Positions 8,695 to 59,209 of a stretch of DNA of 64,000 nucleotides are shown piece after piece. Where the stretch lies: the NCBI GenBank assembly GCA_963755455.1, contig CAVWJH010000004.1, positions 204,948-268,947 of the forward strand. The letters are read 5' to 3'. The notes under the pieces are model-generated. The model worked only from the letters and a program-made list of their open reading frames with translations, was not told the DNA's origin and made no database searches. Position numbers and translations under genes: made by a program. How positions within the stretch are numbered: position 1 is the first letter of the stretch; the number at the start of each line of letters is the position of its first letter. Source of the DNA: an uncultured Verrucomicrobiae bacterium. Its GTDB lineage: Bacteria > Verrucomicrobiota > Verrucomicrobiia > Limisphaerales > UBA11358.

Positions 8695-11600
8695 TCAAAT
8701 TTCCACGTCCACCGTTTTCCGCGCCGATAAAAAATGCAGCCAGCAGTTCGTGACCGGGCGCAAATAAATTTTCGCCAGCGCGCTTGCGTAAAGTTTTAGC
8801 TGCGGTGCATAAATCCTTGTCTTGTCCGCCAAATCGTTTGAGCGAACCTCGTCCGTCTTGAAATCCACCAGCCAGATTTCATCCGGCAGCAGCACGGCCA
8901 AATCCGCCACGCCCTGCACGACAACGAATTCATCTTCCAGTTCCGGCGATGATTTTGTCCCGGTGATTTCCGACAATTCCTGCCGGACTGAACTTCGCCG
9001 TGAACGCCAGTTCGCGTCTCACGCTCGCCGCGTGTCGCCGGATTTTTTGCCCAGCATCCGAATTCCAAAACGCCGCCAGCGCGTTCAAATCCAAAACCGC
9101 GCGTTCGTCCGCCGACAAAAAATTTTCCCGCTCCAGCCGTTCCGCCCCGGCTTCAAGCGCCGCCAGTTCACCCGCATTTTCCAGCGCGATATGCTGGAGA
9201 AACTTGTGGTGCGCCGTGCCGGAATCCGCCGCGCTCAATTTCCGATTTTGCCCCGGTTTCGGGCGTGCGTCGCCCGCGAGCCATTTTTCCGAAAACTCAA
9301 TACTGAAAATTTGTTCCGCTTCGTCATCCAATTCTTCCGCCGCCTGCCGCCGCAATGCCGTGACCGACGACTTGGCCTTTCGTTCGGTCGCCGCGCCGAA
9401 GCCATATTCCCACGCTCAAAGTTTCCTGAAGCTTTTCGCAAAGTTTCATCGTCGAGCTCCGGCAGTTCCGTTTCTGTTTTCTGCTTTCCACTTTCCGCTT
9501 TTTCCGCCGCAAGTTCCGTGTCGTCCACAATCCGCCAGCGCAGATGCGGCAGTTCGCCTTGCGTTTCGCTTTGGCCTTTGGACTTTGAACTTCGGAGTTG
9601 GTTCGCAAACCACAAGCCCAGCCAGTCCGCGAAACTTTTCGCCGCCAGAATTTTTTGCGGCGTGATTGGCCGGTTTCGATGCAAAACTCCGTCCCATTTT
9701 TTCTCCGTGACGCTGGCGGTCAAAATCAGCTTGTCGCGCGCCCGCGTCATGCGCGACGTAAAGCAGCCGCAGTTCCTCGCCCGCGCAGTTCGCGGCGCTG
9801 CTGCCGTTGCGCGAGCCAGTGCGGCAGACTCGGATAACGCCCGCCCGCGTGCGGCGGTTTCACTTTCGGACAAAGCCCGAATTCCTCGTCAAAAATGATT
9901 TCGCCGCGCAGATCCTGCGTCGTTGAATTTTTTTGCAAGATCGGCGAGGGCGACGACTGGAAATTCCAAGCCCTTTGCTTTGATGAATGCTCATCAGCCG
10001 CACGGCATTTTCGTCCGCGACCGGCGAAACTTCCGGTTCAACTTCCGCCTCGCGCTGCGCCTCGATGAATTTCAAAAAACGGAACAGTCCCTGCCGCTGA
10101 AACTGGTCGAACTTTTGCGCGAGATTCAAAAACCGCTCGAATGTTCGCGCGCCCGCTGCGCGCCGCGCGGACGCGTCCGCAGCCAGTCGGCGTAAAGTGT
10201 TTCCGCCAGCATCGCTTCCAGGCATTGCGAGAGCGAGTATTGCTGCGCCAGTTTCCGCCAGCGCATGAAAACCGTTCGAGAAAATTTCCGGTTTTCGCGC
10301 GCGTGTCATTTTTAATTTTTAATTTTGACTTTTGAATTCGAGTTGAGCGCCGTCCAAAAATGTTCATCCCTTGCCGCCAGCCGGATTTCCGCCAGTTCGT
10401 CCAGCGAGCAGCCGACGAGCGGCGAGCGCAGCACCGCGATGCACGGCACATCCTGCAACGGATTGTCGAGCAGTTGCAGCAGGCTTAACAGATCGAGAAT
10501 TTCGCTGCCGTCGAAAAAACCGCCGCGCTCGACCACGCAGCGGCACGCCGGCCGCTCGAATTGTTTCGCAAAAATTTCCGCCTTGCCCGCCGGCGAACGC
10601 AGCAGCACCGCCACGTCGCGCCATTCGACTGCGCGGAAAATCTTTTGTTTCGTCGTCCCAAATTTCATGCTGTTCTGCGTTTTAGTTCTTTCAGTCGCGC
10701 CGCGAGCAGCCGCGCTTCCTTTTCCGATTCGTCCAAATCCGCCAATTCATTTGCGCCGGATTCATCTTCTGGGTCAACCTCGTCGTTGCGTCCGGCTTTG
10801 AGCCGCAAAAGCAGTTCCGTTCGCGGCGACGGATCTTTTGCCGCGCTGAAATCTTCGCGCGTTTCCGGCGAGCCGAATTTCAATTGTGCGTCCGCGTCAT
10901 AATTCACGCCGCCGATTTCCTCGCGCATGAGCGGCTGGAAAACGGAATTGACGAAATTCAAGCAGCGATTCGCGGCTGCGGAAATTTTCGGCAAGCGGAA
11001 TCGTCTGGCCGTTTTCGTTCGCGCCAGTTTTTTGCGTAGTCGCGGAAGATTTTCGGGTCGGCGAGCCGGAAACGGTAAATGCTCTGCTTCACGTCGCCGA
11101 CAAGGAAACGGTTCGCGTCCGCGCCGTCGCGGGAAAGCGCGGCGATGATTTTGTCCTGCGCGGCGTTGATGTCCTGATATTCGTCCACGAAAACGAAGCG
11201 TAATTTTTCGCGCCAGATTTCGGCGACGGCGGTTGGTTTGTTCGCGGAAAAATCCCAGAGCAGTTTCAGCGCGAACTGTTCGAGGTCGTGAAAATCCAGC
11301 ACGCCGTCGGCGCGTTTGCGCGTCGGAAAAATTTTCCGGCAAATTCCTGCGCCAGCCGCAGCAAAGTTTCCATGTGGCCGCGAACCCAGTTCCAATCTTC
11401 CGCGAGCGGATCGCTGCCGTTTTTGACCGGCGCGAGCGCGGCGAGAAAAGCGGCTTCGTCGAACAAATCTTCCAGCGGCTTGCGCAAAATGGTTTTGCGT
11501 TTGGCCGGCCAGTTGCCGTCGGCGGAAACGATTTGTTCCAGAACTTCCGCCGCAAGTTCGCGCGTGAAGTTTTTTTCAAGACGCGACAAAATGCCCGTCA

Positions 11601-12332
11601 ATTCAGCGGCTTTTTCATTTCCGCTTTTCAGGTTTTCCAGAACCGGCAGCCATTCGTCGCGCCAGTCTTCAATCGCGGCGAGCAGCCAGTTTTGCCATTC
11701 AATGGGTTCAGGCGCGGAGAATTTTTGGATTTGTTCCGCGAGCCAGCCGGCGGCGTCGGGGCGCGTTTGCGAATAATGGTGCAGCCGCAAAATGAGCGTG
11801 CGGATTTTTTCGTCGCGGCCGTTGCCGTGAATTTGGATCAAATTTTGGACGGCCGGCGAAAATTCATCTTCGCCTTCGTAATGCGAATTGAAATTGTTCG
11901 TCCAGCGTTTCGTCGGCGAGCTCGCGTCTTCGCCTTCGTCCAGAATGGCGAGCTGCGGGTCGAGGCCGAGTTCGTGAAAATGTTCGCGCACGAGCTTGAG
12001 GCAAAAACCGTGCAGCGTGCCGATGTGCGCGAGCGTCGAACAGCGCCAGTTGTTCGGCGCAATGAGAATCGTCCGGCGACGCGGCGGATTTTTCTTCCAG
12101 TCGCGCGGCGAAGACGCTGGCGCATTTCGGCGGCGGCGGCTTCGGTGAAGGTGACGATGAGCAATTCGTCGAGCGACGCGCGTTCGCGGTCGAGACAATC
12201 GAGGCAGCGGGCGACGAGCGTCTTGGTTTTGCCGGTGCCGGCACCGGCCATGACGAGGACGTTGCCGCGCGCGGCGACCGCCTGCCGTTGGGACGGCGTG
12301 AGCGAATCAGTTTTTTCTGGCGCGGATTCCAT
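8695..12332 (-). pseudogene. AddA-like UvrD-family helicase with a C-terminal PD-(D/E)XK nuclease, heavily disrupted
   Basis: At least seven consecutive minus-strand ORF fragments carry ordered motifs. These are VLVMAGAGTGKTKTLV (Walker A), FVDEYQDIN, LVGDVKQSIYRFR, VRLMSIHQSKGL, MTRARDKLILT, and the nuclease tail GVADLAVLL..WLVDFKTD. An AT-rich insert at about 10306-10335 carries two in-frame stops. Confidence 0.8.
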
Positions 12333-18105: not shown

Positions 18106-19482
18106 ATGAAATCAAACGTCCTGTCCAAATTGGGCCGCCGCACCGCGCTGCCGCCGATCTCGTGGCTCATGCAAGCCGCGCTCACGCGGCCAAAACTCAT
18201 TTCTCTCGCCGCCGGGTTCACGGACAACTCCACTTTGCCGGTCGAAATTTCGCGCAAGCTGCTAAATGAAATTTTGCGTTCGCCAAAAACCGGCCAGCCC
18301 GCGCTGCAATACGGCATCACCGCCGGTGAAATGAATTTGCGCGAACTCACGGCGAAACATCTGCACAAATTGGATTCAGAGTCCTCCTCGTCCTCGTCCC
18401 TCGTCCTCGAACAAATATCGAGGACGAGGACGAGAACGAGGGACGAGGCCGAAAAAAACTATTCGCCGGAACGCGTCATCATCACCGGCGGCTCGCAGCA
18501 GTTGCTTTACATGACGCTCGAAGCGCTCTGCGACGAAAGCGACATCATCCTCGTCGAAGACCCGACGTATTTTGTTTTTTTAAGCATCCTTCAAAGTCGC
18601 GGCATCAAGGCGCGCGGCGTGAAATTGGAACGCGATGGGATTGATTTGTCGCATCTCGAAAAAGTTTTGGAACGGCTGAAAAAATCCGGCGAACTCCGCC
18701 GCGTGAAGGCGCTTTATCTCGTCACCTATTTTCAAAACCCGACCGGCGCGACGACTTCACTCGCGAAAAAATCCGCCGCGCTGAAGTTGTTGAAAAAATT
18801 CGGGCGCGCCGCCGGACATCCGATTTATCTGCTCGAAGACGCCGCGTATCGTGAACTGTCTTTTCCCGGTAGGGCTGACCTGCCGGTCAGCCGGGCGGAG
18901 CCGCAGCTCCGCCCTGCCACGCCGCCTACTGCGCTTACGCTGCCCGGCGCGTCGGAGCGTGTGATTTACACCGGCACTTACAGCAAGCCCTACGCGCCCG
19001 GCGCGCGAATCGGCTTCGGCATTTTGCCGGAACCGATTTTCACGACCGTCCAGCACATCAAGGGCAACCATGATTTCGGCTCGGCGAATTTGCTGCAGCA
19101 ACTTTTGGCGCACGCGCTCGAAACCGGACTTTACGACAAACACGTCGCGAAGGTGCAAAAAAATTACGCCCGCAAGGCGCGCGTGATGAAGCTCGCGCTC
19201 GCGGAACATTTTCCGGCCAGCGTGAAGATCTGGGAATCCGGCGGCGGACTTTATTTCTGGGCGCGATTGCCGAAGGGAATTTCCGCCGGCGTGAAATCAA
19301 AAATGTTTCAGACCGCGCTGAAGAACGACGTGCTCTATGTTCCCGGCGAACTCTGCTACGCCGACGATCCGTCGCGCGCCAAACCGGACAACGAAATGCG
19401 CATCAGCTTCGGCAGCGCGAACGAGGAAAACATCCGCAAAGGAATCGCGCGGCTGGGCAAGGTGTTGAAGAAATTTGTTTGA
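18106..19482 (+). CDS. PLP-dependent aminotransferase (class I/II fold) carrying two in-frame repeat insertions
   Basis: LAAGFTD..LQYG...ITGGSQQLLYM...LVEDPTYF...YLVTYFQNPTG...YTGTYSKPYAPGARIGF...MRISFG. Repeat-derived insertions lie at 18381-18448 and 18868-18918. Confidence 0.8.
   Translation: MKSNVLSKLGRRTALPPISWLMQAALTRPKLISLAAGFTDNSTLPVEISRKLLNEILRSPKTGQPALQYGITAGEMNLRELTAKHLHKLDSESSSSSSLVLEQISRTRTRTRDEAEKNYSPERVIITGGSQQLLYMTLEALCDESDIILVEDPTYFVFLSILQSRGIKARGVKLERDGIDLSHLEKVLERLKKSGELRRVKALYLVTYFQNPTGATTSLAKKSAALKLLKKFGRAAGHPIYLLEDAAYRELSFPGRADLPVSRAEPQLRPATPPTALTLPGASERVIYTGTYSKPYAPGARIGFGILPEPIFTTVQHIKGNHDFGSANLLQQLLAHALETGLYDKHVAKVQKNYARKARVMKLALAEHFPASVKIWESGGGLYFWARLPKGISAGVKSKMFQTALKNDVLYVPGELCYADDPSRAKPDNEMRISFGSANEENIRKGIARLGKVLKKFV
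18381..18448. repeat. Hairpin repeat family F (GTCCTCGTCCTCG type) inside the aminotransferase CDS
   Basis: GTCCTCCTCGTCCTCGTCCCTCGTCCTCGA ACAAATA TCGAGGACGAGGACGAGAACGAGGGACGAGG. It is translated as SSSSSSLVLEQISRTRTRTRDE. Confidence 0.8.
18868..18918. repeat. Repeat family C (GGTAGGGC double hairpin) inside the aminotransferase CDS
   Basis: GGTAGGGCTGACCTGCCGGTCAGCC GGGCGGAGCCGCAGCTCCGCCCTGCC. It is 51 bp, exactly 17 codons, translated GRADLPVSRAEPQLRPA. Confidence 0.75.
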
Positions 19483-24574: not shown

Positions 24575-24937
24575 TCATTCAAGCGGATTTTTTGCGAACG
24601 CAAACTCCTTCACGATTTTTCCGCCGATCAAATGTTCCTGGATGACGCGCTCCAAAACTTCCGGCGCGCACGAATGATACCACACGCCTTCGGGATAAAC
24701 GACGGCAACCGGCCCGCGCACGCAGACGCGCAGACAGTTCGCCTTCGTCCGGTAAACCAGCGGCTCCGCGCCGACCAAATCTAATTCCTTCAGCCGCCGT
24801 TTCAAAAATTCCCATGACTCCAGGGATTTTTCGCGCGGGCAGCATTTCGGCTCCGTCGCGTCGGTGCAAAGAAAAATGTGGCGCCGGAATTTTCCGATGC
24901 CGAGCGTCTCAACGGCGGCCTGTAGTTCGGTTTTCAT
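24575..24937 (-). CDS. Thioredoxin-like [2Fe-2S] ferredoxin family protein
   Basis: HIFLCTD...KCC...[22 protein letters not shown]. The Cys pattern and length fit (2Fe-2S) ferredoxin-like proteins. Confidence 0.6.
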
Positions 24938-25055
24938 AATCTTAATCCTGCTCTTAATTGTAATCGTTTAACTAGGCGGATTAAGATTGGGAAATAAATT
25001 CATCGCCAGAACGCCAGCCCGGTCACTTCGCCGACGGCGATGAGCGCGGCGGCAT

Positions 25056-31922: not shown

Positions 31923-31982
31923 GGTAGGGCTGCGGTGCTCCGCAGCCCAAATATCAGGGTGGCGCGGCAGCACCGCCCTACC
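31923..31982. repeat. Repeat family C, intergenic copy
   Basis: GGTAGGGCTGCGGTGCTCCGCAGCCC AAATATCA GGGTGGCGCGGCAGCACCGCCCTACC. Confidence 0.8.
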
Positions 31983-52254: not shown

Positions 52255-53868
52255 ATGATGAGCGATGACGCGACGCTGCTGCGGGAATATGCCGGGCGCA
52301 ATTCCGAGGAGGCATTCTCCGCGCTCGCGTCCCGCCACGTCAACCTGGTTTATTCCGTCGCCCTGCGCCGCGTCCGCGACCCGCATCTGGCGGAAGAAAT
52401 CACGCAGGCGGTTTTCATCATTCTGACGCGCAAGGCGAAATCACTTGGCGACAAAACCATTTTGCCCGGCTGGCTTTGCCGCACGGCGCGGTATATTTCC
52501 GCCAACGCATTGACAATCCAGCGCCGCCGCCGGCACCGCGAACAGGAGGCTTATATGCAATCCATTTTGAACAGTGGCGGCGACGCCCCGTCGCAACCAG
52601 TTGACGAAGAAATTTGGAATCAAATCGCGCCGTTGCTGGACGACGCGCTGTCGCAACTCGGACAAAAAGATCACGACGCCATTGTGCTGCGATTTTTTGA
52701 AAACAAAACTCTCGGCGAAGTCGGCGCGGCCATCGGCGCGAGCGAGGACACGGCGCGGATGCGGGTCAACCGCGCGCTGGAAAAATTGCGGAAAATTTTC
52801 ACGAAGCGCGGCGTTGTTTCCACGACCGCAATCATCGCCGGGGCGATTTCCACCAATTCCGTTCAAGCCGCGCCGGTTGGACTGGCGAAAACAATTTCCG
52901 CCGTTGCAATTGCCAAAGGCGCGGCGGCTTCAACTTCAACCTTAACCCTCATCAAAGGAGCATTGAAAATTATGGCATGGACAAAAGCAAAAATGGCAAT
53001 CGTCGTCGGTGTGGGCGTTTTGCTCGCAGTCGGAACCACAACCGTCACCGTCAAAGAATATCAGGAGCACCGGACTTATCCGTGGCAACTTCCCAATTTC
53101 GTTTACAAAGCTGACAACTCACGTGTCGTTGCCCCAAGCGTTATAGAGAAAACACCACCTCAAGTTCGGATTGTGCCGACCATTCATCCTCGAGGCGTAA
53201 ATGGCTTTCCCTTTTCGGAGGGGGATTCTGCGGATTGGATCGGTGGAAAATGGCTGGTTCACACCAATCAATCGAAAAGCATCGGGCTTGGTGCCACCCT
53301 GGACGAAATGATTCAGACTGCATACGGCAGTGAACGCCGGAACACGATTTATTTAACGCAACTGCCCACCGGCCGATATGATTACATCGCAAATTTGCCT
53401 CATGGCGCGTTTCAAGTCTTGCAAGAACAGATTAAAAAGAAATTTCGTGTGATCGGAAGGTGGCAGCCTGTGGAAACAAATGTCCTCTTGCTCAAACTCG
53501 CAAATCCAGACGCTCGGGCATTCAAGCCGGCCGGCAGTCTGATGCGCAGCATGGACATTACGAATATAGAACCCCGTTTCGTGTCGGTTTACGGCGGCGC
53601 AGTCGTTGGCGATGCGTATTTAAATCAGACCATGGCTCATTTTATAGAGGGGCTGCAGGGCACCTTTCAACTTCCAATTGTTGATGACACCGGAATCACA
53701 AACCAGTTCGATTGCATTTACAAAGCCCCGCAATGGAATCGCAGTTGGACTGGCAACCCCGATGCTCCCAAACAAGCCACAAGAGATGCTTTATACAATC
53801 AGCTTGGTTTGGAACTGGTTCCCGGCACCGCGCCGGTTGAATTTTTCGTGGTCGAAAAGTCAAAATAA
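52255..53868 (+). CDS. ECF-type sigma-70 factor fused to a TM helix and a TIGR03435-like extracytoplasmic domain
   Basis: Region 2 (LVYSVALRRVRDPHLAEEITQAVFI) and region 4 (AIVLRFFENKTLGEVGAAIGASEDTARMRVNRALEKLR). These are followed by a hydrophobic helix and a tail ending LYNQLGLELVPGTAPVEFFVVEK. Confidence 0.7.
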   Translation: MMSDDATLLREYAGRNSEEAFSALASRHVNLVYSVALRRVRDPHLAEEITQAVFIILTRKAKSLGDKTILPGWLCRTARYISANALTIQRRRRHREQEAYMQSILNSGGDAPSQPVDEEIWNQIAPLLDDALSQLGQKDHDAIVLRFFENKTLGEVGAAIGASEDTARMRVNRALEKLRKIFTKRGVVSTTAIIAGAISTNSVQAAPVGLAKTISAVAIAKGAAASTSTLTLIKGALKIMAWTKAKMAIVVGVGVLLAVGTTTVTVKEYQEHRTYPWQLPNFVYKADNSRVVAPSVIEKTPPQVRIVPTIHPRGVNGFPFSEGDSADWIGGKWLVHTNQSKSIGLGATLDEMIQTAYGSERRNTIYLTQLPTGRYDYIANLPHGAFQVLQEQIKKKFRVIGRWQPVETNVLLLKLANPDARAFKPAGSLMRSMDITNIEPRFVSVYGGAVVGDAYLNQTMAHFIEGLQGTFQLPIVDDTGITNQFDCIYKAPQWNRSWTGNPDAPKQATRDALYNQLGLELVPGTAPVEFFVVEKSK

Positions 53869-55108: not shown

Positions 55109-55386
55109 TAATTTGCGGATGATGTCGCTCCTAAACGGAGCTTGGGCAATGTTTTTCGTTTGTGGTCTGTCTATAACGATTCCGCACCTACGGTGCTTGG
55201 AAAAACAAAGTCGAGATTGCCAAACAAATGAAAATTCCGCCACTTCACGCTTCGACGGCTTCCATGTCCGTCAATTCACCGGCGAATTCCAGGCAGGCGC
55301 GGATGTCGGGCTGAATACGCCCGATTCAAAACCGAGTCGGGAATTTTTTGACGGCAACATCAACTTTGTTCCGCATATTTGTCGTT

Positions 55387-55444
55387 GGTAGGGCGGTGCT
55401 GCCGCGCCGCCCAAATATGGGCTGACCGGCAGGTCAGCCCTACC
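55387..55444. repeat. Repeat family C, intergenic copy
   Basis: GGTAGGGCGGTGCTGCCGCGCCGCCC AAATAT GGGCTGACCGGCAGGTCAGCCCTACC. It shares both sub-hairpin types with the other two copies. Confidence 0.8.
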
Positions 55445-55930
55445 GTCATTTGCTTCACCACCAAGACATCGAAATCAAAACTTGCTGTCTTCGTGCCTTG
55501 GTGGTTGAAAATTCAAGGCCAATGCGCCAGAGGACTGGCGCACTACAAGACGCTTCGCGCAATCCGGTTGCCATCTAAAGAGCGCGCCAGCGTCTTGGAC
55601 TGCGGCGGCCCTCCGCCGCTCTTCCCCCGGGTGCATCTGGACATTGTTCTTATTTCTGAACCAGTAGCGCAGATTTGCAATCTGCTGTATCGCGGATTTT
55701 CAATCCGCAAGGCGTCGGCGGTTCAATGGGCTTGGGCTTGGCGGCGCGCTGCCGAATGCAATTCGGCGATACGGCAGATTTCAAATCTGCGCTACCTCTG
55801 CTGGCCGCAAGAACAGTGTCCAGATGCACCCTCTTCCCCAAGAAGCCGGAAAACCCCGCCGGACGGCAAATATCCCTTAAATCGCTCATTTTGAACCCAT
55901 ACGAGCCGTTCCAGCCCATTTTTGTCGGCC

Positions 55931-56414
55931 TAAAAACTGCCGTCGAACCGTTCGACGGGTATCAAAAACTTATTTTAGGTGGCGTCGAACAGCCCGGCCT
56001 CCCCTAAAAACTCTTTTTGAGAGGCGTCGAAGGCTTCGACAGTGTTCCGAGGCTTCCAAAAAAGCCGTCGAACGCTTCGATGGGTCTAAAAAACTTATTT
56101 TGGAAGGCATCGAAGGCGTCGAACAAGCCCCAAAACTCCTTAAAATAGCCATCGAACGGTTCGACGGGTATCAAAAACTTATTTTGGAAGGCGTCGAACG
56201 GTCCGAGCAAGTCCCGAGGCTCCCCAAAAAGCCATCGAACGGCTCGACGGGTCTGAAAAACTTATTTTGGGAGGCATCGAACGGTTCGACGGGGTTGAAA
56301 ATATCCTTTTGAAAGGTGTCGAACAGCCCGGTCTCATATAAAAACTCTTTTTCATGGCCGTCGAATGCTTCGACGTGCTCAAAAAACTTGTTTCAGGAGG
56401 CGTTGGACGGCGGT
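55931..56414. repeat. Tandem array of a unit of about 42 bp (about 11 copies) with a dyad-symmetric GC core and an A/T spacer
   Basis: Units such as GCCGTCGAACGGTTCGACGGGTATCAAAAACTTATTTTGGAAG. Palindromic cores include CGTCGAACCGTTCGACG (55941-55957) and GTCGAAGGCTTCGAC (56026-56040). Stops occur in every frame. Confidence 0.85.
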
Positions 56415-59133: not shown

Positions 59134-59209
59134 TCGTCCTCGTGCTCATTCTCGTCCTCGTCCTCGAAAATAAAGGGAGAATCGAGAACGAGGAGGAGGA
59201 GGAGAAGGA
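59134..59209. repeat. Hairpin repeat family F, intergenic copy
   Basis: TTCGTCCTCGTGCTCATTCTCGTCCTCGTCCTCGAAAATAAAGGGAGAATCGAGAACGAGGAGGAGGAGGAGAAGGA. Confidence 0.7.

What the first reader, a model, noticed from the sequence alone, without database searches (positions are those of the whole stretch)
18381..18918. One aminotransferase gene carries two different repeat families in-frame
Within the intact 458-aa aminotransferase ORF, 18381-18448 is a near-perfect hairpin of about 30 bp arms from family F, translated SSSSSSLVLEQISRTRTRTRDE. A second copy of that family is intergenic at 59134-59209. The segment 18868-18918 is a 51-bp (17-codon) family-C element translated GRADLPVSRAEPQLRPA, with intergenic copies at 31923 and 55387. 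Two independent insertions are both tolerated in-frame in one enzyme. That argues for either strong filtering for frame-preserving insertions or elements adapted to be translatable.
Basis: partly seen in the sequence, partly recalled or inferred. Interest (0 to 1): 0.68.

Follow-up and report, generated by a model that had tools for sequence, protein, structure and literature searches.

The report
Translated palindromic repeats in aminotransferase loops
A working aminotransferase gene of a soil Verrucomicrobium carries two short palindromic DNA repeats that are translated as extra surface loops; this kind of event is already known, but here the same two loops carry different repeat families in related species.

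Summary
ORF 18106-19482 is an intact LysN/kynurenine-aminotransferase-II-like PLP enzyme. It carries a 66-nt hairpin (family F, 18382-18447) and a 51-nt element (family C, 18868-18918), both in frame. Neither segment exists in PDB homologs, in about 98 diverse family members or in deep-branching orthologs. The core is under purifying selection (dN/dS 0.14-0.22) and the catalytic residues are invariant. In a confident AlphaFold model the only low-confidence stretches are the two inserts. Family C is a tail-to-tail dimer of GTAG-headed REP units: 25+1+25 nt, exactly 17 codons.

In a metagenome sample of the same unit, 16 Pfam-confirmed host genes carry it. Intragenic dimer lengths are multiples of three in 39 of 40 copies, and every one is read in a single phase (GGT-AGG-G).

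Across 80 related species the same two loops carry at least five (site 1) and three (site 2) unrelated palindromic families. There are nested and decayed copies and different junctions. No other internal site is hit.

In-frame REPs and palindromic elements are already documented (Rickettsia RPEs; GTAG REPs in Opitutus terrae). This is therefore a new member of a known kind. The multi-family hot spot and the single reading phase are the extensions of interest.

The parts
18106..19482 (+). Host gene: a 458-aa PLP-dependent fold-type I aminotransferase of the LysN / kynurenine aminotransferase II-like group. It is intact and under purifying selection.
   Evidence: Pfam PF00155, E = 1.4e-25. Best PDB sequence matches are 1x0m/3aov and 2egy. 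AlphaFold pLDDT 93.8; Foldseek TM-score (target-normalised) 0.89-0.92 to 3aov and 2zyj. dN/dS 0.14-0.22.
18382..18447 (+). Family-F palindromic insert at site 1, codons 93-114 (SSSSSSLVLEQISRTRTRTRDE). The left arm is (TCC/TCG)n, the loop is ACAAATA and the right arm is (CGA/GGA)n.
   Evidence: Inverted repeat. Fold z = -5.7. Absent from 48 of 81 orthologs and from all distant homologs. pLDDT 65-77. No stop codon in any of the six frames.
18868..18892 (+). Family-C unit 1: a GTAG-headed REP-like hairpin, GGTAGGG-CTGACC-TGCC-GGTCAG-CC.
   Evidence: The exact 25-mer recurs at window 55419-55444(-) (read). It also occurs on at least 120 metagenome contigs.
18894..18918 (+). Family-C unit 2 in inverted orientation (GGCGGAGC-CGCA-GCTCCGCC-CTGCC). 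With unit 1 and the single spacer base G at 18893 it forms a 51-nt tail-to-tail dimer, which is codons 255-271 (GRADLPVSRAEPQLRPA).
   Evidence: pLDDT 53-69. PDB homologs show a 13-residue gap at this position.
31923..31982 (.). Intergenic family-C dimer, 60 nt, with an AAATATCA spacer and different hairpin modules.
   Evidence: z = -4.2.
55387..55444 (.). Family-C dimer outside any confirmed gene, 58 nt, with an AAATAT spacer. Its second unit is the reverse complement of unit 18868-18892. The only ORF overlapping it is a 171-aa TTG ORF (55379-55894) that starts 8 nt upstream; I judge this a probable spurious extension but did not test it.
   Evidence: z = -4.5.
59134..59209 (-). Intergenic family-F copy in inverted orientation relative to the genic copy, with one arm decayed.
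   Evidence: Fold z = -2.65.

Best explanation
Both segments are copies of dispersed palindromic (REP-type) repeats that landed inside the coding sequence of a functional aminotransferase. They are translated as extra, poorly ordered surface loops.

Family C is a tail-to-tail dimer of two GTAG-headed REP-like hairpins, which is a REPIN-like structure. Family F is a long triplet-periodic hairpin.

What is shown:
- They are lineage-specific insertions at two loops of an otherwise conserved and selected enzyme.
- The same family-C unit sits in frame in at least 16 other housekeeping genes.
- In those genes it is always a multiple of three in length and always read in the phase GGT-AGG-G.
- In related species the same two loops carry other, unrelated palindromic families. 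These have different junctions, and nested and decayed copies occur.

What is inferred:
- The elements spread by a REP-type copy mechanism. For the GTAG families this is probably a RAYT-like HUH tyrosine transposase acting on single-stranded hairpins.
- Insertions into coding DNA survive only if they keep the frame, avoid the TAG phase, encode a harmless Gly/Pro/Arg/Asp-rich peptide and hit a loop that tolerates length change.
- Once a hairpin occupies a loop, that site stays a landing pad. Later elements insert into or beside the resident hairpin, arms are lost by slippage, and modules are exchanged with dispersed copies by gene conversion. That would explain the turnover of families at fixed positions.
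For: Insert status:
- Of the 120 closest homologs, 76-100% identical and 414-483 aa long, the baseline form is about 422-424 aa and lacks both segments.
- Internal length variation occurs at only two places in the whole protein.
- PDB homologs are gapped at exactly these places.
- Diverse representatives have 8-23 aa at site 1 and 18-23 aa at site 2.

Gene function.

Hot spot:
- Among 81 orthologs, site 1 carries F in 21, G in 8, H in 2 and other inserts in 2. Site 2 carries C in 12, Q in 4, P in 3 and one scar-like remnant.
- Fitch parsimony on the core tree requires at least 21 changes at site 1 and 18 at site 2.
- Families defined from these inserts hit the aminotransferase genes 48 times in 105 kb, against 16 times in 487 kb of flanking DNA; 13 of those 16 are intergenic.
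- A family-blind hairpin scan placed 33 of 87 strong windows in the aminotransferase genes.

Junctions differ between events:
- C elements start 0, 1 or 5 codons after F253.
- P elements start 1 or 10 codons after F253.

Nested copies occur in L046, L048, L051 and L034. Truncated or scar-like copies occur in L004, L019, L028 and L060.

Filter:
- For length and phase statistics.
- For host gene identities.

L021 carries a G element 91-95% identical to those of another clade. Yet its flanks match its own clade (0.79-0.86 identity) better than that other clade (0.71-0.74).
Against: - No RAYT-like gene was found in the window or in 1.24 Mb of related loci. The test was weak: tblastn with an E. coli YafM sequence recalled from memory. 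The mobilising enzyme is therefore unverified.
- No target-site duplication is visible. The filled and empty alleles differ by more than a clean insertion: 6 loop codons are replaced by 20, and R252 is usually changed.
- Family F was found almost only in this gene, at 20 loci plus one intergenic copy. It may not be a mobile high-copy family.
- Among close relatives, flanks next to site 1 co-vary with the presence of F. Part of the patchy distribution is therefore allele exchange rather than new insertion.
- The through-ORF criterion can only detect frame-preserving copies, so the length result is partly circular.
- The NJ tree is approximate, so the event counts are rough.
Confidence: 0.78

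Rival explanations
1. The hot spot is purely a product of selection. Repeats insert at random along the gene, and only the two loops that tolerate extra residues keep them. No targeting or landing-pad effect is needed.
For: Site 1 is the most length-variable loop of the whole family (sd 2.9 aa among 98 diverse members). Both inserts have low pLDDT and are probably peripheral. The same unit sits in linkers and loops of many other proteins.
Against: - Site 2 (sd 1.5) is no more variable than five other loops: 190-198, 233-240, 371-375, 389-400 and 418-428. None of those is ever hit in about 200 orthologs.
- Neighbouring genes in 487 kb carry almost no intragenic copies.
- Nested insertions into resident hairpins occur.
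Confidence: 0.3
2. The inserts are kept because they are useful. Either mRNA or DNA hairpins modulate expression or translation pace, or the added peptides serve the enzyme.
For: - Inserts evolve more slowly than synonymous sites of the host gene. G elements are 91-97% identical where flanking third codon positions are 50-88% identical.
- The C insert has dS 0-0.06 against a core dS of 0.3-0.8.
- The same sites are occupied repeatedly.
Against: - Unrelated sequences substitute for each other at the same loop.
- 48 of 81 orthologs at site 1 and about 60 of 81 at site 2 do without an insert.
- The C peptide shows dN at least as high as dS.
- The same elements are intergenic elsewhere.
- Slow divergence is equally explained by homogenisation with dispersed copies.
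Confidence: 0.1
3. Each site received one ancient insertion. The present diversity and patchiness come from vertical descent, loss, and homologous exchange of alleles between related species, not from repeated insertion.
For: - Each family uses a single phase and orientation in this gene, and G has an identical junction everywhere.
- Filled site-2 alleles share flanking markers: loss of R252 and an extra Pro.
- Near site 1 the window gene is closer to F-bearing relatives than the rest of the gene predicts.
Against: - Families F, G, H and C, P, Q are unrelated in sequence.
- C and P elements have several different left junctions.
- L021 has native flanks around a G element typical of another clade.
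- The deep outgroups are empty at both sites.
Confidence: 0.2
4. Family F is not a mobile repeat. It is a gene-specific palindrome that arose locally, by fold-back or template switching plus triplet slippage, and has been inherited with the gene.
For: In 1.24 Mb surveyed, paired F arms occur only in the aminotransferase gene. Arm lengths vary in steps of three bases between species.
Against: An intergenic copy shares about 25 nt of near-identical arm at 59134-59209. F alternates with other families within shallow clades.
Confidence: 0.25

Closest known systems
Intragenic GTAG REPs, especially in Opitutus terrae (Di Nocera, De Gregorio and Rocco 2013, BMC Genomics, PMC3733652)
   Same: - Both are short GTAG-headed palindromic units found singly or as dimers.
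- Tail-to-tail dimers have spacers of only 1-2 bp.
- Units are translated in frame inside known proteins, and dimers encode about 20 aa.
- Some ORFs are hit twice.
- Hosts include UvrA, helicases, tRNA synthetases and tRNA-modifying enzymes.
- The host organism is a Verrucomicrobium.
- The paper also notes one case (recB in Xanthomonas) of different REPs at about the same site.
   Different: - The repeat sequences and the order differ: Limisphaerales/Pedosphaera-like rather than Opitutales.
- Here the comparison spans about 80 species and shows at least 5 and at least 3 families alternating at two fixed loops.
- The dimer is strictly 17 codons long and is read in a single phase.
- None of these three points is reported in the passages of that paper that I read.
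Rickettsia palindromic elements, RPE (Ogata et al. 2000 Science; Ogata et al. 2002, as cited in PMC10969869)
   Same: Both are selfish palindromic repeats inserted in frame into many unrelated housekeeping genes. They are translated, and they are judged compatible with the fold and function of the host protein.
   Different: RPEs are about 100-150 bp, AT-rich and confined to Rickettsia, which is an obligate intracellular bacterium with weak selection. Here the elements are 51-114 nt and GC-rich, in free-living soil and peat bacteria. There is no sequence relationship.
REPIN/RAYT systems (Bertels and Rainey 2011, PMC3116915)
   Same: Two inverted REP units form one hairpin-forming doublet with GTAG ends. 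Sub-families have compensating stem changes. The element sequence is highly conserved compared with neutral sites.
   Different: REPINs are described as extragenic. The partner RAYT was not found in the sequence available here.
In-frame MITEs of enterobacteria and cyanobacteria (Delihas 2007, and the review PMC10969869)
   Same: Both are small non-autonomous repeats that carry open frames and create translational fusions when they are intragenic.
   Different: Those elements have classical terminal inverted repeats and target-site duplications from DDE transposases. No duplication is seen here.

Membership tests
GTAG-type REP / REPIN | A short palindromic unit of 20-40 nt with a conserved GTAG at one end | tested here: met
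   The units are GGTAGGG-stem-loop-stem-CC, 25 nt long. Unit 2 of the genic copy has a degenerate end, CCCTGCC.
GTAG-type REP / REPIN | Two units in inverted orientation forming one doublet | tested here: met
   The tail-to-tail dimer is 25+1+25 nt. Intergenic copies have an AAATAT spacer.
GTAG-type REP / REPIN | Many dispersed copies per genome | tested here: inconclusive
   There are 3 dimers in this 64-kb window. No complete genome was available for a per-genome count.
GTAG-type REP / REPIN | A cognate RAYT (HUH tyrosine transposase) gene flanked by the repeats | tested here: inconclusive
   tblastn with E. coli YafM, recalled from memory, gave no hit in the window or in 1.24 Mb of loci. 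RAYTs are single-copy genes, so absence from this sample says little.
GTAG-type REP / REPIN | Extragenic location | tested here: not met
   The copy at 18868-18918 is inside a CDS. Of 126 sampled units, 45 passed the through-ORF test; removing the 6 copies in clusters without a confirmed gene leaves 39 in Pfam-confirmed genes. The literature already lists such exceptions (PMC3733652).
Rickettsia palindromic elements (RPE) | Sequence membership in RPE families 1-10, about 100-150 bp, in Rickettsia | not tested
   No alignment to RPE sequences was made. The size (51-66 nt), the GC-rich composition and the host phylum differ from what is described for RPEs (PMC10969869; own knowledge). I therefore do not file it as an RPE; it resembles RPEs only in behaviour.
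MITE (DDE-transposase derived) | Terminal inverted repeats plus a target-site duplication | tested here: not met
   The ends GGTAGGG and CCCTACC are inverted repeats, but no direct duplication flanks any copy inspected.
Fold-type I aminotransferase, class I/II (PF00155), LysN/KAT-II-like | The PLP-binding Lys, the Asp that binds the pyridine N, the Asn/Tyr that contact O3', the C-terminal Arg, and the overall fold | tested here: met
   K294, D245, Y248, N211 and R432 are invariant in 108 sequences; their roles are assigned from established knowledge of the family. Foldseek gives TM-score (target-normalised) 0.89-0.92 to 3aov and 2zyj. Substrate specificity was not tested.

The most novel reading that the evidence does not exclude
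In Limisphaerales, REP-type hairpin repeats may act as a systematic source of protein loop variation.

One REP dimer family appears co-adapted to coding DNA.
- It is exactly 17 codons long.
- About a third of the sampled copies are intragenic.

A loop that is once occupied may become a persistent landing pad. Unrelated hairpin families would then replace each other in place, through hairpin-targeted insertion, arm loss and gene conversion. The element DNA would be held more constant than the synonymous sites of the host gene.
Probability: 0.3. Interest if true: 0.65.

Novelty: new member of a known kind. Interest (0 to 1): 0.45.

Why it matters
The case extends protein-coding palindromes well beyond reduced intracellular genomes. 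In free-living soil and peat Verrucomicrobiota with large populations, a REP dimer is read through in at least 16 housekeeping genes. These include UvrA, RecQ, LeuRS, TilS, MiaB, the CCA-adding enzyme and a Ser/Thr kinase activation loop.

The aminotransferase gives a natural series of about 80 species with empty, filled, nested and decayed states at two fixed loops. That series can be used in three ways.
- It can separate insertion bias from selection.
- It can measure how proteins absorb random peptides.
- It can test whether resident hairpins attract further elements.

There are also practical consequences. These repeats produce spurious low-complexity segments in protein databases, split HMM hits and cause chimeric metagenome contigs such as L152.

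Tried and rejected
- AlphaFold with only close homologs (alignment A1) gave an unusable model with pLDDT 57. I replaced it with a model built on a diverse alignment.
- RNAalifold on 18 family-F inserts was uninformative. The triplet-periodic arms cannot be aligned unambiguously, so I make no covariation claim for F.
- The RAYT search by tblastn found nothing.
- The exact-protein look-ups did not reveal the source organism. The lineage is inferred from the relatives, which are Verrucomicrobiota / Limisphaerales MAGs.
- Rfam found no family in the window at gathering thresholds.
- I considered that the empty site-1 alleles are scars of family G. The similarity is only marginal (p about 0.006-0.07 over 18 tests) and is also present in outgroups, so I left this as unexplained.
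- I considered a pseudogene with a paralog doing the job. This is rejected by dN/dS, the invariant catalytic residues and intact ORFs in 79 of 80 species.
- I considered ancestral segments lost elsewhere. This is rejected by the outgroups and by the diverse family members.
- Phase xxG-GTA-GGG hits (L189, L096) and two odd ORFs (clusters 13 and 14) turned out to be non-coding or unsupported by Pfam. I excluded them.
Full report
THE OBSERVATION

The ORF 18106-19482(+) encodes 458 aa and matches Pfam Aminotran_1_2 with E = 1.4e-25.

Codons 93-114 (18382-18447) read SSSSSSLVLEQISRTRTRTRDE. They form an imperfect palindrome whose stem of about 25 pairs is interrupted by three small mismatches or bulges, around a 7-nt loop. 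As single-stranded DNA the stretch folds at -25.6 kcal/mol. Shuffles average -12.5, z is -5.7, and 0 of 200 shuffles fold as well.

Codons 255-271 (18868-18918) read GRADLPVSRAEPQLRPA. They consist of two 25-nt hairpin units joined by one base, with the outer ends GGTAGGG and CCCTGCC.

- 31923-31982 and 55387-55444 are GGTAGGG...CCCTACC doublets with an AAATAT(CA) spacer.
- Unit 55419-55444(-) is identical to 18868-18892.
- GGTAGGGC occurs 5 times in the window against 0.27 expected.
- The F-like copy at 59134-59209 aligns best in reverse orientation and shares about 25 nt of one arm.
- No ORF of 90 aa or more crosses 31923-31982 or 59134-59209. At 55387-55444 the only overlapping ORF is a 171-aa TTG ORF that starts 8 nt upstream, which I take to be a spurious extension.

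ARE THEY INSERTIONS?

The 120 closest database proteins are 76-100% identical and 414-483 aa long. The shortest common form, about 422-424 aa, lacks both segments. In that alignment, internal length variation occurs at only two places, after residue 90 and after residue about 253.

PDB relatives confirm this. These are PH0207 (1x0m/3aov), LysN (2egy) and others. They have 8 residues where the query has 34, and a 13-residue gap opposite the second segment.

Among about 98 diverse family representatives, 30-60% identical, the two regions are 8-23 aa and 18-23 aa long. There is one unrelated exception.

IS THE GENE ALIVE?

- In 80 species-representative genomes, all Verrucomicrobiota / Limisphaerales-type MAGs, the ORF is continuous in 79.
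- Core dN/dS between the window gene and eight relatives is 0.14-0.22.
- N211, D245, Y248, K294 and R432 are invariant across 108 sequences. From established knowledge of fold-type I aminotransferases these are the PLP and substrate-carboxylate ligands.
- An AlphaFold model built on a diverse alignment has mean pLDDT 93.8 and pTM 0.93. The only weak 10-residue blocks are 91-110 (pLDDT 77 and 65) and 251-270 (pLDDT 69 and 53), which are the two inserts.
- Foldseek places the model on kynurenine aminotransferase and LysN structures with target-normalised TM-scores of 0.89-0.92.

The second refutation condition is also not met.

WHAT THE ELEMENTS ARE

Family C has the anatomy of a GTAG-headed REP doublet. 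Each unit is GGTAGGG, a 6-9 bp stem, a 3-4 nt loop, the return stem and CC. The two units lie tail to tail with the GTAG heads outside. In orthologs and in other loci the hairpin modules are exchanged as whole stems between the constant ends. Examples are CTGACC/GGTCAG, CGGAGC/GCTCCG, ACGCGC/GCGCGT and CCGACC/GGTCGG.

Family F is a long hairpin with triplet-periodic arms. It has no stop codon in any of its six frames.

Other families seen at the same loops in relatives are these.
- G is a 58-nt near-perfect palindrome, GGGAGGGACGCCGTGTCGGCGTCCC-AAAAATCA-GGGACGGCGGCACGCCGTCCCTCCC.
- H has GTGG heads.
- Q has the ends cTGTAGCGG...CCGCTACAg.
- P is about 110 nt long.

THE RECURRENT-TARGET RESULT

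Among 81 orthologs the states are as follows.
- Site 1 carries F in 21, G in 8, H in 2, two other inserts, and is empty in 48.
- Site 2 carries C in 12, Q in 4, P in 3, one scar-like remnant, and is empty in the rest.
- All four presence/absence combinations occur.
- The deep-branching orthologs (58-62% identical) are empty at both sites, except L078, which has an unrelated insert at site 1.

States are interleaved on a neighbour-joining tree of the masked core. Fitch parsimony needs at least 21 changes at site 1 and 18 at site 2. The tree is rough, so these are order-of-magnitude figures.

Independent events are also shown by different junctions.
- C-type elements start 0, 1 or 5 codons after F253.
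- P elements start 1 or 10 codons after it.

Nested copies exist. A small hairpin sits inside F in L046, L048 and L051, and another sits inside the loop of C hairpin 2 in L034. The same composite occurs at an unrelated locus, L113. Truncated or scar-like copies occur in L004, L019, L028 and L060.

No other position of the protein carries a repeat in about 200 orthologs.

As a control I used the 487 kb flanking these genes.
- It holds only 16 hits to the same families, 13 of them intergenic. The 105 kb of aminotransferase genes hold 48. This comparison is biased because the families were defined from the inserts.
- A family-blind scan for 70-nt windows folding below -38 kcal/mol still placed 33 of 87 windows in the aminotransferase genes. 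Most of the remaining true palindromes are intergenic.

SELECTION OR TARGETING?

- Site 1 is the most length-variable loop of the wider family (sd 2.9 aa).
- Site 2 (sd 1.5) is no more variable than five other loops that are never hit. Tolerance alone does not obviously explain site 2.
- L021 carries a G element 91-95% identical to those of a different clade, with the same junction. Its flanks match its own clade (0.79-0.86 identity) better than that other clade (0.71-0.74).
- Near site 1 the window gene is closer to F-bearing relatives than the rest of the gene predicts. Allele exchange among close lineages therefore also contributes.
- Inserts change more slowly than neutral sites. G elements are 91-97% identical where flanking third codon positions are 50-88% identical. 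The C insert has dS 0-0.06 against a core dS of 0.3-0.8, while its dN is at least as high as its dS.

I read this as homogenisation with dispersed copies, or re-insertion, rather than selection on the peptide. This is an inference.

- 45 matches lie in a frame that stays open for at least 100 codons on both sides.
- They fall into 20 gene clusters. Pfam confirms 15 of them as real genes, and the aminotransferase cluster makes 16.
- The confirmed hosts are UvrA, pyrimidine-nucleoside phosphorylase, a short-chain dehydrogenase, an MFS transporter, a Ser/Thr kinase (in the activation loop), a GH20 hydrolase, RecQ, TilS, LeuRS, a B12-radical-SAM protein, an ABC-F ATPase, a MiaB-like protein, a SIS-domain protein, a pyridine-nucleotide-disulfide oxidoreductase and a CCA-adding enzyme.
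- Intragenic dimers measure 51 nt (32 copies), 54, 57, 60 or 66 nt, with one of 59 nt. Copies outside ORFs measure 50, 51, 52, 58, 59, 60, 63, 68 or 95 nt. The criterion can only see frame-preserving copies, so this result is expected in part. The canonical intragenic form is nonetheless exactly 17 codons.
- The more telling result concerns phase. All 16 confirmed hosts read the dimer as GGT-AGG-G, giving GRADLPVS... in one orientation and GRDALPRV...ADRQVSPT in the other. The phase xxG-GTA-GGG is equally free of stops. Under an even split between the two phases this has probability about 2^-16.
- The only hits in that other phase proved to be non-coding (L189, upstream of a prepilin-type start) or unsupported (L096).
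- The third phase contains the TAG of the GTAG head.

COMPARISON WITH WHAT IS KNOWN

In-frame palindromic repeats were first described as Rickettsia palindromic elements (Ogata et al. 2000 and 2002, as summarised in PMC10969869).

Di Nocera et al. 2013 (PMC3733652) catalogued intragenic GTAG and CGTC REPs.
- Tail-to-tail dimers there have 1-2 bp spacers, and dimers encode 20-30 aa.
- Some ORFs are hit twice.
- Repair genes and RNA-related genes are prominent hosts.
- In one case, recB of Xanthomonas, different REPs lie at about the same site.

The present case therefore belongs to a described kind. It is not an RPE: size, composition and taxon all differ, though I made no direct sequence comparison. 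It has the REP/REPIN anatomy, but the defining RAYT partner could not be checked in the sequence available.

What I did not find in the papers I read is threefold: the breadth of the multi-family turnover at fixed loops, the nested copies inside coding DNA, and the single-phase rule.

VERDICT

The finding is a new member of a known kind. The hot spot and the phase exclusivity are worth a genome-wide follow-up.

Noticed in passing
window 52574-52594, inside ORF 52255-53868(+): A single GTGG-headed REP-like unit (GTGGCGGCGACGCCCCGTCGC) lies in frame in the linker between sigma-70 regions 2 and 4 of an ECF sigma factor fused to DUF3738. The identical 21-mer is intergenic in another species (L018 2837-2857).
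   Followed up: partly
window 55936-56374: A tandem array of a 42/84-nt unit (AAGCCATCGAACGGTTCGACGGGTCT.AAAAACTTATTTTGG) lies in the region just downstream of the family-C copy at 55387-55444.
   Followed up: no
window 24932-24994; L004 2875-2923: An AT-rich palindrome (..AATCTTAATC...GATTAAGATT..) is present in the window and, in similar form, next to the aminotransferase locus of another species. It is probably a further repeat family.
   Followed up: no
L086 about 11078-11847 (UvrA); L178 (ABC-F ATPase): Other housekeeping genes also carry two inserts. UvrA has a family-C dimer between its interaction and DNA-binding domains, plus a family-P element further on. An ABC-F ATPase has two C-type dimers.
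   Followed up: partly
L149 1967-1991, L160 3995-4019 (also L083): A 60-nt family-C dimer is translated inside the activation loop of a Hanks-type Ser/Thr kinase (DFGIAK..[insert]..GTPxY). L083 has a 59-nt version with a disrupted downstream frame.
   Followed up: partly
L152 (1643 nt): This contig joins the 3' end of an unrelated gene (..RMAKKAAVQN) to the aminotransferase gene exactly at the family-C element. It looks like an assembly chimera formed through the repeat.
   Followed up: no
aminotransferase residue 252 (window 18859-18861) across L001-L080: Arg252 of RELRF is kept in 59 of 61 alleles with an empty site 2 but in only 3 of 20 filled alleles, where it is mostly Ser. Filled alleles also share an extra Pro before TAL/SAL. 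This may be a compensatory change or a haplotype marker.
   Followed up: partly
site 1 of empty alleles (e.g. L004 3268-3303, L068): The empty loop DNA (CTCGACGGCGG.CACGACCG) resembles the right arm of family G (GACGGCGGCACGCCG), with p about 0.006-0.07 against shuffles over 18 tests. It could be microhomology at the target or chance.
   Followed up: partly
L091/L164 versus L114 (GH20 hydrolase): The same gene at the same site carries the family-C dimer in opposite orientations and with different partner units in different contigs. In-place turnover is therefore not limited to the aminotransferase.
   Followed up: no
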